A stretch of DNA of 20,098 bases from Anaerolineae bacterium (lineage in GTDB: Bacteria; Chloroflexota; Anaerolineae; JAKLPW01): contig JAKLPW010000312.1 of assembly GCA_022013675.1 (NCBI GenBank), positions 1-20,098 of the forward strand, in the 5' to 3' direction. Shown here piece by piece: positions 15,113-18,100 of the stretch. The stretch's first letter is position 1; the number at the start of each line of letters is the position of its first letter. The notes under the pieces are model-generated. The model ran no database searches, was not told the DNA's origin, and was given only the letters and a program-made list of their open reading frames with translations. The position numbers and the translations under genes are program-made.

Positions 15113-18100
15113 GTGCTCCATGACACTCGCCGGACCAGCGGCAGAATCCAGCGAGGCATAAGCCTGATCGAGCCGCTCGTTTACCGGCGACGTCAGTCAT
15201 TGCCTTGTTTTCGCTATCTCAAGCTGGAAAGTCCCCTGGCCGACTCACCGGTTCATCCAGGGGTAGATGATAGGGATTGGGGGTCGATTCCCTGGGGCAC
15301 CTACTGGTCTGAGTTCAATGCGGACTTCGTCCTGCGCACGAGCTTCCAGGTTCCTTCCGACTGGGGCACCGACTCCCCCGTCGCCTTGCACCTTCCCATT
15401 GGCGAGGCGGGCGATTTCAGCCACCCTGAAGCCCTGGCATATATTGACGGCCGGCCCCATGCTGCCTGCGATCGGCATCATCAGGAGATGGCGCTGTCGC
15501 CGCGCTTCTGCGACGGGGAGCCCCACCTGTTGGCGCTTCATGGTTGGGCCGGCAGTCTGCGCGACGACGTGCAAGCCAAATTGCTGATGCGTACGTGTGC
15601 TGTGGTGCAAATTCATCAGCCCACGCGCGACTTTGTTGCGCTGGCCCGCGTTGCCCTGGGCGTTGCCGATCATCTGAGCGAGAACGATCCTGCGCGCGGC
15701 CACCTGTACACCGCCCTGGTTGAGGCCTTTAACGTCCTGGATACTCGTGAGGCGGCGCGCAGGGATGCGCGCGATCCGAACTGCCAGATGCATCACGGGG
15801 GGGCGTGCAGGGATGCGCGCGATCCGGACCGCCAGATGCACCACGGGGGGGCGCGCAGGGATGCGCGCGATCCGGACCGCCAGCCAGACCGCGAGGGGGC
15901 TCGCAGGGATGCACGCGATCCGGACAGACAGCTGCACCACGGGGGGGCGCGCAGGGATGCGCGCGATCCAGACCGCCAGATGCATCACGAGAGGGCGCGC
16001 AGGGATGCGCGCGATCCGGACTGCCAGCCGGACCGCGTGCATCCTTGCACGCCTCCTCCCACGCCCTTCGGCGACCGCTTCTACGCCAGCGTGCCGCTTG
16101 CCCACACCATCCTGCGCCAGGGCATCAGCCGGGCAGGCCCTCCACTGGATGTGAGCATCTCCGCCGCAGGTCACGCCCACATCGACGTGGCGTGGCTCTG
16201 GACGCTGGGCCAGACCAGACGCAAAGCCGGGCGAACCTTCCACAACGTCGTGCGATTGATGGAGCAATTCCCCCAGTTCCGCTTCAGCCAGAGCCAGCCC
16301 CAGTTGTACGACTTCGTACGAGAAGATTATCCCGAGCTTTTCGCGCTCATCAAGCAGCGTGTGCGCGACGGTCGTTGGGAGCCCCTGGGCGGCATGTGGG
16401 TGGAGGCCGACTGCAACATCTCGGGGGGCGAATCCCTGGCGCGCCAATTCCTCCTGGGGCGGGCTTTCTTTCGCCGTCACTTTGGGATCGACGCTGAAGC
16501 TCCTGTCCTCTGGCTGCCCGACGTGTTCGGATACTCCTGGAACCTTCCTCAACTGATCAAGGAAGCGGGCTTGCGCTATTTCTTCACCATCAAGATAGGC
16601 TGGAATCAGTACAACCGCCTGCCTTACGATTCCTTCTGGTGGCAGGGTCTCGACGGAACGCGCGTGCTCACTCATTTCAGCACCACCCGACGGAGCGGCA
16701 GCGTTCACGCTAGCACCTACAATGCGGATGCCTCCCCTGAACAGACTATCGAGACCTGGCGCAACTTCCAACAGAAGGATTGGGGTAGACCCGGCACAGC
16801 TCCCCCCCTGCTCATGGCCTTCGGCTACGGCGACGGTGGCGGTGGCCCCACGCGAGAGATGCTGGAGAACATCCGAGAGATGGGGGAGTTCCCCTCCACC
16901 CCACGCATCGCCTGTAGCACAGTGGGAGAGTTCTTCCAAAAGCTGGAAACCGACGTTGGAGACCGCCTGCCCACGTGGAACGGCGAGCTGTACCTGGAGA
17001 ATCACCGTGGCACATACACCACCCAAAGCCGCAACAAGCGTGCCAATCGCCAGAGCGAGTTCCTGCTCCATGACGCCGAGTTCCTGGCCGCAATGGCCTC
17101 CACGGTCCAGCCTGACTATCGCTACCCCCACCCCGATTTGCACAGGGCCTGGGAGCTAACCTGCCTCAATCAGTTCCACGACATCATCCCTGGCAGCAGC
17201 ATACACGAGGTCTACGTCGAGTCGCAGCAGCAATACGCTGAGATTAGCAATATTGCCGGCAGAGTCCGGGAGGATGCCCTGACGGCGATTGCCCAGAAAC
17301 TGGGGTCGGACATCTTGTTGGTGAACCCGACCTCATTCAGTCGCCGCGACCCGGTCCTTTGTGGCCACGACCTGGTTCAGAGTTGTCGCGACCTGGCTCT
17401 GGGGACCGGTTCGGACCTCGAGAACCTGACCCTGCAGCACAGCGATGGCGCGCGCGTCCCTGTTCAGCCCGTGGACGGTGGGTTCCTGCTGGATGCTGGC
17501 GAGCTGCCGCCCTACACCGTAGTGCCCCTCTTCCTGGTAACCGGCTCCCCCTCGGGGATCCAGCAAGAGCATCCCAACGCGGGCCCGACCGCCACCCCGA
17601 CTCTACTGGAAAACGGACATCTGCGCGTGGAGCTGGACCCTGCCGGTGAGATTGTTCGTATTTATGACAAGCTGAGTCATCGTGACGTGCTGCCAGCGGG
17701 CGGTATTGCCAATCAGTTTCTGGCCTTCGAAGACCGTCCACTCAATCCCGATGCCTGGGATGTGGACATCTTCTACGATGACAAGATGTGGTTGGCCGAG
17801 CCCGCGGACTCGGTGCGTGTGGTAGAGAGCGGTCCGTTGCGTGCCACGCTGGAAGTGCGACGGCGCATCCTGAACAGTGAATTCGTTCAGCGCATCTCGT
17901 TGACCCACAACAGCGCCCGATTGGATTTCGACACCACTATTCAGTGGCGCGAACGGCACATTCTGCTCAAGGCAGCCTTCCCGGCCGACGTCTTGTCCCC
18001 GACAGCGACCTACGAGATCCAGTGGGGCAACGTCCAGCGCCCGACCCATCGTAACACCAGTTGGGACTGGGCCCGCTTCGAGACCTGTGCCCAGAAATGG

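What the first reader, a model, noticed from the sequence alone, without database searches (positions are those of the whole stretch)
15755..16040. In-frame 48-nt tandem repeat (x~6) inserted in the N-terminal region of the GH38 alpha-mannosidase gene
The repeat sits between a ~215-aa N-terminal region and the catalytic GH38 N-domain (AAGHAHIDVAWLW). It encodes a His/Arg/Asp-rich (RRDARDPDRQMHHGGA)n array. Each DNA unit contains a GC-rich hairpin (CGCGCA-GGGA-TGCGCG), so it looks like a REP/minisatellite-type element that has expanded inside a coding sequence while preserving frame. Copy-number variation here would change the protein without inactivating it. It could also be an assembly collapse or expansion artefact.
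Basis: seen in the sequence. Interest (0 to 1): 0.6.

Follow-up and report, generated by a model that had tools for sequence, protein, structure and literature searches.

The report
In-frame palindromic repeat array in mannosidase
A small hairpin-forming DNA element of the kind usually found between bacterial genes sits inside an alpha-mannosidase gene of a Chloroflexota bacterium and has multiplied there in steps that keep the reading frame, adding a floppy, variable-length loop to an otherwise normal enzyme; this is a clear but not unprecedented case.

Summary
A 48-nt tandem array of about 6 units (15754-16027) lies in frame in an intact 1239-aa GH38 alpha-mannosidase gene (15113-18832). It is part of a 312-nt insert (15752-16063). 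More distant orthologues lack the insert (LDTRE|PFG). Close relatives carry 84-168 nt at the same codon, roughly 1, 2 or 3 units. The ancestral insert is a pair of inverted hairpins, GCGCGCA-GGGA-TGCGCGC followed by GATCC, which is the REPIN/BIME layout. The window amplified the left arm. Length changes come in steps of 12, 48 and 144 nt. One more copy of this hairpin class lies outside genes at 5727-5749. The class is dispersed between genes in Acidobacteriota contigs, with covarying stems. It has no GTAG or CGTC tag, and neither a RAYT transposase nor genome-wide copy number could be checked. AlphaFold2 predicts the insert as low-confidence coil (pLDDT about 30) between two confident helices. 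The same gene carries two more in-frame expansions: (GGAGGAC)27 and a 21-nt triplication. My verdict is a REP-like palindromic insertion that became a coding minisatellite and is probably neutral. It is a new member of a known kind (Rickettsia RPEs, intragenic REPs). The exact copy number cannot be verified without reads.

The parts
15113..18832 (+). Host gene: an intact GH38 alpha-mannosidase of the Ams1/Bl_Man38 type, 1239 aa. It is the last-but-one gene of a LacI / ABC sugar transporter / GH38 / LigT cluster.
   Evidence: All four Pfam GH38 domains score above their cut-offs. PDB sequence hits to Ams1 and 7ufr-7ufu have E-values of 1e-117 to 1e-151. Foldseek gives target-normalised TM-scores of 0.71-0.78 (0.77 to 7ufr and 6lz1). 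The metal-binding motif GHAHIDVAW is invariant. Synteny with L003 is shown.
15752..16063 (+). The whole lineage-specific insert: 312 nt, 104 codons, between LDTRE (residues 209-213) and PFGDRFY.
   Evidence: Protein alignment and DNA extraction. The orthologue in L006 reads CTCGATACTCGCGAG|CCTTTCGGC with nothing in between. The insert is 84, 96, 108, 144 and 168 nt in L005, L003, L004, L001 and L002.
15754..16027 (+). 48-nt tandem array, about 6 units. In codon register it spans 15749-16036, with a 144-nt higher-order period.
15755..15777 (+). First of six left-arm hairpins (7-bp stem, GGGA loop) with a 3' GATCC tag. The others start at 15803, 15851, 15899, 15947 and 15995.
   Evidence: single-unit folds.
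16030..16052 (-). Right-arm hairpin in inverted orientation (GCGTGCA-AGGA-TGCACGC followed by GGTCC, read on the minus strand). It encodes ...PDRVHPCT.
   Evidence: (I1). Relatives have GCGAGCA...TGCTCGC here, a change on both sides of the stem that keeps the pairing while changing two amino acids.
15989..16058 (+). Long REPIN-like hairpin formed by the last left unit and the inverted right arm.
   Evidence: As DNA, dG is -27.6 kcal/mol with z = -4.6. As RNA, dG is -54.6 kcal/mol with z = -7.8. It produces spurious miRNA-precursor hits in Rfam.
5727..5749 (+). Copy of the same hairpin class at the edge of a gene (GCGGGCA-GGGA-TGCCCGC followed by GGTCC), at the 5' end of ORF 5199-5753 (-).
   Evidence: It is conserved in same-species contigs L141 and L142 as GCGGGCAGGGACGCCCGC followed by GATCC.
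18341..18530 (+). Second in-frame expansion in the same gene: (GGAGGAC) x27, equal to 63 nt x3, encoding (GGRRMEG)n between the GH38C domain and the C-terminal beta-sandwich.
   Evidence: Relatives have (GAAGGAC)3-4, a loop, then (GTCCTTC)3, which together form a long hairpin. AlphaFold2 predicts coil with pLDDT below 50.
17345..17407 (+). Third in-frame expansion: a diverged 21-nt triplication (RDPVLCG/HDLVQSC/RDLALGT). It is a single copy in P0002, P0003 and P0005.
   Evidence: pLDDT is below 50 at residues 746-757.

Best explanation
A REP/REPIN-like palindromic element inserted once into the codons for a short turn between two helices. The turn links the N-terminal beta-sandwich to the catalytic domain of a GH38 alpha-mannosidase, and the insertion happened in the ancestor of a small Anaerolineae (Chloroflexota) clade. 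The element consists of two roughly 23-nt hairpin-plus-tag units in inverted orientation around a short (CCGGACCGCNNN)n spacer. Its length is a multiple of three and it has no stop codon, so the enzyme survived with an extra hydrophilic loop. The hairpin-rich segment then changed length repeatedly by replication slippage or unequal recombination, in steps of 12, 48 and 144 nt. In the window's strain the left hairpin plus half of the spacer now stands at six tandem copies. The array is best read as a selfish or neutral DNA-level feature, a coding minisatellite tolerated in a disordered surface loop, and not as a protein adaptation. Shown here: the insertion, its anatomy, its variable length, the hairpins, related hairpins elsewhere, and the predicted disorder. 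Inferred: the mobile origin, slippage as the mechanism, and neutrality.
For: Insert-free orthologues contrast with 84-312 nt at the identical codon in six lineages, all with intact ORFs. Insert lengths are 84, 96, 108, 144, 168 and 312 nt, all multiples of 12. The window differs from the 97-98% identical L002 by exactly 144 nt, which is 3 units. An inverted right arm and a long hairpin are present. The right-arm stem changed on both sides between lineages (GCGAGCA/TGCTCGC versus GCGTGCA/TGCACGC), which alters two amino acids (E to V, S to T) but keeps the pairing. The same hairpin and tag occur at 5727-5749 and are conserved in two same-species contigs. When the pattern is searched with the two inner stem positions left free, 53 of 59 instances are complementary, using 7 different dinucleotide pairs. 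The class is dispersed between convergent or co-directional genes in Pyrinomonadaceae contigs. Units differ mostly by non-synonymous changes, and 3 of 18 hairpin columns vary against 14 of 30 other columns. AlphaFold2 gives pLDDT of about 30 and coil for residues 217-316, flanked by confident helices, and the rest of the model matches Ams1/Bl_Man38A. This lineage is rich in small dispersed palindromes and tandem arrays that vary between strains. The literature already describes intragenic REPs and RPEs, REP dimers encoding 20-30 aa, clusters encoding 43-82 aa, and tandem reiteration of REPs (PMC3733652; PMC10969869).
Against: Only one copy outside the gene was seen in 28.5 kb of this species, and none in about 53 kb from relatives. 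The unpaired tag is GNNCC, not the GTAG or CGTC that defines the described REP superfamilies. No RAYT gene could be looked for. No target-site signature is visible. Peptide searches found no other protein carrying the translated element. The heptamer hairpin in the same gene looks locally generated, so a local origin for the 48-nt element is also possible.
Confidence: 0.65

Rival explanations
1. Local origin. The palindrome arose in place, for example by template switching or inverted duplication in a GC-rich loop-coding stretch, and then expanded by slippage. No mobile REP family is involved, and the similarity to hairpins elsewhere is convergence on a GC stem with a GNRA-type GGGA loop.
For: The same gene holds a second hairpin built from heptamer repeats and a 21-nt triplication, and both look home-grown. 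No extragenic copies were found in the relatives' flanks or in L144. The 18-mer hairpin alone turns up in many unrelated GC-rich genomes with quite different flanks.
Against: The copy at 5727-5749 shares the loop, the stem frame and the 3' tag, with matching changes on both sides of the stem, and its chance expectation is well below 0.01. An identical 23-mer including the tag recurs in clusters of the same class in other phyla.
Confidence: 0.2
2. Assembly artefact. The insert is real, but the six-unit count, or the 144-nt duplication, comes from mis-assembly of short reads or from a chimera of co-existing strains.
For: The nearest strain (L002, GCA_043825035.1) has exactly one 144-nt block fewer and sits on a 2.3-kb contig fragment. 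No reads were available.
Against: Every unit carries its own substitutions, with pairwise matches of 38-45 out of 48, and assemblers do not invent such differences. Five other independent contigs from four datasets all show the insert at different lengths. Other arrays in the window differ from the same-species contig L141 by whole units too.
Confidence: 0.12
3. Selected protein feature. The His/Asp/Arg-rich array is an adaptive linker or a metal-binding loop, since GH38 enzymes depend on metal ions, and copy number tunes enzyme behaviour.
For: The units contain HH pairs and acidic residues. The insert has persisted through about 4-15% protein divergence (85-96% aligned-column identity).
Against: The HH motif is absent from the versions in P0001-P0004. 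Units differ by non-synonymous changes, and the DNA stem is conserved at the expense of the peptide. Most orthologues lack any insert. The segment is predicted to be disordered.
Confidence: 0.05
4. mRNA-level role. The stable hairpins (one of -54.6 kcal/mol as RNA) pause ribosomes at the domain boundary or protect or process the operon transcript.
For: Stem pairing is maintained by changes on both sides. The RNA fold has z = -7.8. REPs are proposed to act as RNA elements (PMC3733652).
Against: No orthologue outside the small clade needs it. The left hairpin has decayed in L005 with the ORF still intact. Pairing could also be kept by DNA-level processes.
Confidence: 0.08

Closest known systems
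Rickettsia palindromic elements (RPEs) and intragenic REPs (Di Nocera et al. 2013, PMC3733652; MITE review PMC10969869)
   Same: A small palindromic repeat is inserted in frame in a gene for a known, apparently functional protein. The insert is a dimer encoding about 30 aa in its basal form. It lies in a loop or linker, and clusters can encode 43-82 aa or more.
   Different: The phylum differs (Chloroflexota). There is no sequence relation to RPEs. The tag is GNNCC, not GTAG or CGTC. Only one gene is known to be hit here. One arm has been amplified head-to-tail to six copies.
REPIN / BIME elements mobilised by RAYT transposases (PMC3337134, PMC3116915)
   Same: Two short imperfect palindromes in inverted orientation around a short spacer can fold into one long hairpin. 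An unpaired tag lies next to the hairpin foot. Tandem amplification of REP-containing units is known (BIME-2 arrays in E. coli, from my own knowledge; tandem reiteration in Pseudomonas).
   Different: REPINs are extragenic and present in tens to hundreds of copies with a cognate RAYT gene. Here the element is in a coding region, its copy number in the genome is unknown, no RAYT was examined, and the GTAG tag is absent.
Coding minisatellites / VNTRs in bacterial genes (for example MIRU-VNTR loci and PE/PPE repeats of Mycobacterium; own knowledge, and PMC12817950 from its title and abstract only)
   Same: The unit length is a multiple of three, copy number differs between strains, and the variation changes the protein without a frameshift.
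   Different: The unit is built around a REP-like hairpin, and the array ends in an inverted copy of itself.

Membership tests
REP / REPIN (RAYT-associated) | Short (20-40 nt) imperfect palindrome forming a stem-loop | tested here: met
   A 7-bp stem and a 4-nt loop, perfect in 4 of 6 units.
REP / REPIN (RAYT-associated) | Two REPs in inverted orientation around a short spacer, able to fold into one long hairpin | tested here: met
   A left arm and an inverted right arm are found in the window and in L001-L004; in L005 only the right arm survives. The long hairpin has z = -4.6 as DNA and -7.8 as RNA.
REP / REPIN (RAYT-associated) | Conserved unpaired GTAG (or CGTC) tetranucleotide at one end (PMC3733652) | tested here: not met
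   The flank of the stem is GATCC, GGTCC or GCTCC (GNNCC) on the 3' side and G-rich on the 5' side. No GTAG or CGTC is present.
REP / REPIN (RAYT-associated) | Many dispersed, mostly extragenic copies in the same genome | tested here: inconclusive
   One copy (5727-5749) was found in 28.5 kb of this species, and none in about 53 kb from relatives. Dispersal was shown only in Pyrinomonadaceae contigs.
REP / REPIN (RAYT-associated) | Cognate RAYT (Y1 transposase) gene flanked by the repeats | not testable with these tools
   The source genome is not available beyond the window and one 21-kb same-species locus.
RPE-type in-frame palindromic insertion | Palindromic repeat inserted in frame in an ORF that stays intact | tested here: met
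   The ORF is 1239 aa, all GH38 domains and invariant motifs are kept, and the insert is absent from orthologues.
RPE-type in-frame palindromic insertion | Insert lies in a surface loop compatible with the fold | tested here: met
   The AlphaFold2 model shows residues 217-316 as coil with pLDDT of about 30, between helices 193-208 and 321-339. The remainder matches Ams1/Bl_Man38A. This is a prediction, not a structure.
RPE-type in-frame palindromic insertion | The same element inserted in several unrelated genes of the genome | tested here: inconclusive
   Two peptide searches found no other carrier, but the query is low-complexity and only one reading frame was tried.
Coding minisatellite (VNTR) | Head-to-tail copies, unit a multiple of 3, reading frame preserved | tested here: met
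   48 nt is 16 codons, with 5.7 copies and no indels.
Coding minisatellite (VNTR) | Copy number differs between strains or close relatives | tested here: met
   Relatives carry 0, about 1, 2, 3 and 6 units. The difference from a 97-98% identical strain is exactly 144 nt. All of this comes from assemblies, not from reads.
CRISPR array | Conserved repeats separated by unique spacers of similar length | tested here: not met
   The 25 nt between the hairpins are themselves repeated, with whole units matching at 38-45 of 48 positions, and the array is translated within a conserved ORF.
Phase-variable simple-sequence contingency locus | Unit length not divisible by 3, so copy changes switch the frame | tested here: not met
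   The units of the 48-nt array are 48, 12 and 144 nt. The separate heptamer array (18341-18530) does have a 7-nt unit, but its copies are imperfect (81% matches) and it is organised in in-frame 63-nt blocks.

The most novel reading that the evidence does not exclude
The hairpin GC-NN-GCA-RGGA-TGC-N'N'-GC with a 3' GNNCC tag could define a REP-like superfamily distinct from the GTAG- and CGTC-tagged ones. It would be shared by Acidobacteriota (Pyrinomonadaceae) and Chloroflexota (Anaerolineae), with its own mobilising enzyme. In this repeat-prone Anaerolineae lineage it would colonise coding loops and then seed in-frame minisatellites, which would be a route by which selfish palindromes create new, length-variable protein segments.
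Probability: 0.25. Interest if true: 0.55.

Novelty: new member of a known kind. Interest (0 to 1): 0.35.

Why it matters
This locus shows three stages of one process side by side. The empty site is seen in most orthologues. The basal roughly 96-nt palindromic doublet is seen in L003-L005. Progressive in-frame amplification to 312 nt is seen in the window. That makes it a convenient natural series for two questions: how REP-type DNA enters genes, and how much disordered insert a large tetrameric-type glycosidase tolerates. It is also a practical warning for annotation and assembly. The gene carries three repeat expansions that inflate the protein by about 170 residues, and these are likely to be mis-assembled or to differ between strains.

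Tried and rejected
A 20-23-mer that included the tag should have been used.
- Exact-protein look-ups for the window's GH38, MalK-type ATPase and LigT found nothing. Only the Band_7 protein gave same-species contigs.
- A search with the repeat peptide alone found nothing at E <= 0.001. An exhaustive phmmer of the 112-aa insert returned only unrelated periodic low-complexity proteins.
- A search with the N-terminal 345 aa returned only partial, insert-free or frameshifted relatives.
- Rfam gave no hits at gathering threshold. The E-value hits are miRNA-precursor models that simply match a long hairpin.
- A CRISPR reading was rejected because there are no unique spacers. Phase variation by the 48-nt array was rejected because the unit is divisible by 3. 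A pseudogene was rejected because the ORF and the invariant catalytic motifs are intact.
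Full report
**1. The observation**

Tandem Repeats Finder reports an array at 15754-16027 with period 48, 5.7 copies, 86% matches and no indels. The same stretch has a 144-nt higher-order period at 15749-16037. A 24-nt core of the unit occurs six times, all in the array, against none in 100 shuffles. The array lies in ORF 15113-18832 (+), which is 1239 aa. Read from 15749 it gives six 16-residue units of the type (G)GARRDARDPDRQMHH. Each unit contains GCGCGCA-GGGA-TGCGCGC. The stem is perfect in four units and has 1 or 2 mismatches in units 2 and 4. 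The ORF carries all four Pfam GH38 domains: N-domain 349-623, middle 629-725, C-domain 832-1037 and C-terminal beta-sandwich 1157-1228.

**2. It is an insertion, and its length varies**

The closest database proteins are alpha-mannosidases from Anaerolineae/Chloroflexota metagenome bins (MAGs), mostly 1050-1130 aa long. In the alignment, the more distant orthologues (P0005 to P0081 among those aligned, and the majority in a 70-sequence set) read ...VLDTRE|PFGERFY... with nothing in between. Only the closest clade has extra residues at exactly this point:
- P0002, P0003 and P0004: about one unit.
- P0001: two units.
- P0029 (98% identical): three units.
- The window: six units.

DNA fetched for these genes gives insert lengths of 84 (L005), 96 (L003), 108 (L004), 144 (L001), 168 (L002) and 312 nt (window, 15752-16063). 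L006 reads CTCGATACTCGCGAG|CCTTTCGGC. All six lengths are multiples of 12. The spacer part is itself a 12-nt repeat, CCGGACCGCNNN, encoding PDRx. The window and L002 differ over this region by exactly 144 nt, which is one higher-order block of three units.

**3. Anatomy: an inverted doublet with one arm amplified**

The 3' end of the insert (16030-16052) is an inverted copy of the unit's hairpin and tag. On the minus strand it reads GCGTGCA-AGGA-TGCACGC followed by GGTCC. The last left unit and this right arm fold into one long hairpin. As DNA it has dG -27.6 kcal/mol and z = -4.6. As RNA it has dG -54.6 kcal/mol and z = -7.8. This hairpin is what produces spurious miRNA-precursor hits in Rfam; nothing reaches a gathering score.

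The basal form in L003 and L004 is left hairpin with GATCC, then (CCGGACCGCNNN)2-3, then GGACC with the right hairpin. That is two REP-like palindromes in inverted orientation around a short spacer, the layout described for REPINs (PMC3337134). In L005 the left hairpin has decayed while the ORF stays intact.

Between lineages, the right stem changed on both sides: GCGAGCA...TGCTCGC in L001, L003, L004 and L005, against GCGTGCA...TGCACGC in the window and L002. This changes the peptide from REHPCS to RVHPCT but keeps the base pairing. Within the array, 3 of 18 hairpin columns vary against 14 of 30 other columns, and most differences between units are non-synonymous. Conservation therefore follows the nucleic-acid structure, not the peptide.

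**4. Relatives of the hairpin elsewhere**

One more copy lies in the window at 5727-5749: GCGGGCA-GGGA-TGCCCGC followed by GGTCC. It sits at the 5' edge of ORF 5199-5753 (-). In two contigs of the same species (L141 and L142, 99.1-99.7% identical to the window) it reads GCGGGCAGGGACGCCCGC followed by GATCC.

A metagenome scan with a 20-mer that spans the stem and tag returned 14 contigs. None of them was a GH38 gene. Most showed clusters of the same hairpin type with different stems, for example GCGCGCAGGGATGCGCGC-GATCC|GCAGGCAAGGATGCCTGC-GCTCC, or inverted doublets.

I then searched the pattern with the two inner stem positions left free on both sides. In that search 53 of 59 instances are complementary, using seven different dinucleotide pairs. 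In contigs L127, L133 and L140 there are three clusters per 11-14 kb. Judging by the ORF coordinates, most lie between convergent or co-directional ORFs. Proteins from L133 fall in clusters named Pyrinomonadaceae/Blastocatellia, which belong to Acidobacteriota.

So the hairpin belongs to a real structured class that behaves like REPs in at least one other phylum. Its unpaired tag is GNNCC, not the GTAG or CGTC that defines the two described REP superfamilies (PMC3733652).

In this Anaerolineae lineage I could show only the one copy outside the GH38 gene. None was found in the flanks of L003-L005, nor in 23 kb around the orthologue of a more distant relative (L144). That pattern is too common in GC-rich Proteobacteria to be informative.

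**5. Effect on the protein**

An AlphaFold2 model of residues 40-1239, built with 70 aligned sequences, has mean pLDDT 73.5 and pTM 0.78. It matches Bl_Man38A and Ams1 with TM-scores of about 0.77 normalised by the target. The sequence-level PDB hits are the same proteins.

The long segments with pLDDT below 50 are mainly:
- Residues 217-316, which is the insert. It is predicted as coil at pLDDT of about 30, between helices 193-208 and 321-339.
- Residues 1079-1143.
- Residues 746-757.

Other low-confidence stretches of 10-35 residues (for example full-length residues 960-994, 878-888 and 628-637) do not coincide with any repeat.

Invariant catalytic-domain motifs such as GHAHIDVAWLW and WLPDVFGY are intact. 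The gene sits in a conserved cluster of LacI, solute-binding protein, two permeases, MalK-type ATPase, GH38 and LigT. This fits a functional enzyme that carries a tolerated floppy loop.

**6. The other two low-confidence segments are also repeat expansions**

At 18341-18530 there are 27 copies of GGAGGAC, equal to three 63-nt blocks, encoding (GGRRMEG)n. Relatives have only (GAAGGAC)3-4, a loop, then (GTCCTTC)3. Together these fold into a long hairpin (z = -8.2 in L001 and -6.2 in L006) and encode KTKDEGRRT...PVFRLSSFV. Here again the left arm of a coding-region palindrome has been amplified in the window.

At 17345-17407 a 21-nt unit is triplicated (RDPVLCG/HDLVQSC/RDLALGT). P0002, P0003 and P0005 have a single copy.

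The lineage is repeat-prone in general:
- The window has 7 arrays with TRF score of at least 50 in 20 kb, L003 has 7 in 12 kb and L005 has 4 in 10 kb. L144 has none in 23 kb and the in-clade locus L004 has none in 10 kb.
- Arrays at 6621-6658 and 6790-6854 differ from the same-species contig L141 by +36 and -15 nt.
- Several other small palindromic elements recur at non-orthologous places.

**7. Interpretation**

The best-supported reading is that a REP/REPIN-like palindromic doublet entered a loop-coding site once. The segment has since changed length by slippage or unequal recombination in 12-, 48- and 144-nt steps, and selection removes only the variants that break the frame. This is the phenomenon described for Rickettsia RPEs and for intragenic REPs in several species. 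In those cases dimers encode 20-30 aa, clusters encode 43-82 aa, tandem reiteration is noted, and the insertions are argued to be neutral because they lie in linkers or loops (PMC3733652; PMC10969869).

What differs here is the phylum, the tag, the head-to-tail amplification of one arm to six copies, and the presence of three independent expansions in one gene.

Rivals are a purely local origin of the palindrome, an assembly error in the copy number, a selected His/Asp-rich loop, and a role at the mRNA level. Each has some support, but less. They are listed with the tests that would decide between them.

**8. Limits**

No reads were available, so the count of six units is unverified. The existence of the insert is secure, because five other independent contigs from four datasets carry it. 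The source genome could not be scanned, so copy number in the genome and the presence of a RAYT gene remain open. The structural statement rests on a prediction.

Noticed in passing
window 18341-18530 (right arm about 18544-18562): (GGAGGAC) x27, organised as 63 nt x3, lies in frame in the same GH38 gene and encodes (GGRRMEG)n. Relatives have only 3-4 GAAGGAC heptamers facing inverted GTCCTTC heptamers, which form a long coding-region hairpin (z down to -8.2). A 7-nt unit could in principle shift the frame.
   Followed up: partly
window 17345-17407: A diverged 21-nt triplication (RDPVLCG/HDLVQSC/RDLALGT) in the GH38 gene. It is shared with P0001, P0004 and P0029, is a single copy in P0002, P0003 and P0005, and is predicted to be a disordered loop.
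   Followed up: partly
window 5727-5749: A lone hairpin of the same class as the repeat unit (GCGGGCA-GGGA-TGCCCGC followed by GGTCC), at the 5' edge of ORF 5199-5753 (-). It is conserved with small changes in same-species contigs L141 and L142.
   Followed up: yes
window 5925-6010, flanked by 5860-5900 and 6061-6089: A long hairpin with GTAG...CTAC ends (RNA dG -29.6 kcal/mol, z = -5.0) sits between two direct copies of CCACGAATTGCACGAATTAACACGAAAA. The hairpin recurs twice in tandem in L003 (903-966 and 1042-1105) at a different genomic position. It may be a canonical GTAG-type REPIN family of this lineage.
   Followed up: partly
window 6965-7060: A palindromic segment of about 77-96 nt (CCTCCCGCAGGTT...AACCTGCGGGAGG) is present in the window but absent at this site in the 99%-identical L141. 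Related copies lie downstream of LigT in L003 (11825-11918, in tandem x2) and L004 (6838-6884). It looks like a MITE-type mobile element.
   Followed up: partly
window 6621-6658 and 6790-6854, in ORF 6162-7115 (-): 18-nt and 15-nt tandem arrays in a gene of unknown function differ from same-species L141 by +36 nt and -15 nt. These are whole-unit, in-frame changes.
   Followed up: partly
window 10259-10343; L003 2274-2449: GGTCGGGAGACCTTCGCTATCAGG is repeated exactly between the LacI gene and the solute-binding-protein gene. It contains a GGTC-GGGA-GACC mini-hairpin. L003 has 3.6 copies of a 49-nt version. It may be an operator or a REP-like array with variable copy number.
   Followed up: partly
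window 10534-10618; L003 2650-2769: 12/24-nt repeats (CGTCGAGAAGAC) lie in the N-terminal linker region of the sugar-binding protein and are conserved in L003.
   Followed up: no
window, L003, L005 versus L144 and L004: Tandem-repeat density is high in three of the four insert-bearing loci compared (7 arrays in 20 kb, 7 in 12 kb, 4 in 10 kb). It is zero in 23 kb around the orthologue of a more distant relative (L144), but also zero in 10 kb of the in-clade locus L004.
   Followed up: partly
L007-L126 (genome-contig hits): The bare hairpin GCGCGCAGGGATGCGCGC is part of several unrelated dispersed repeat families in GC-rich Gammaproteobacteria (Lysobacter, Rudaea and others). They often sit next to further stem-GGGA-stem hairpins, so a GGGA (GNRA-type) loop seems to be a recurrent feature of REP-like elements.
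   Followed up: no
P0124 (JGI contig, 285 aa): A P0002-like N-terminus that is frameshifted upstream of the insert and reads the palindromic region in another frame (…GRAGMHAIQTATQTTNRTTNRTASRTAS…), with extra 12-nt sub-repeats. It is either a sequencing error or a real frameshift variant.
   Followed up: no
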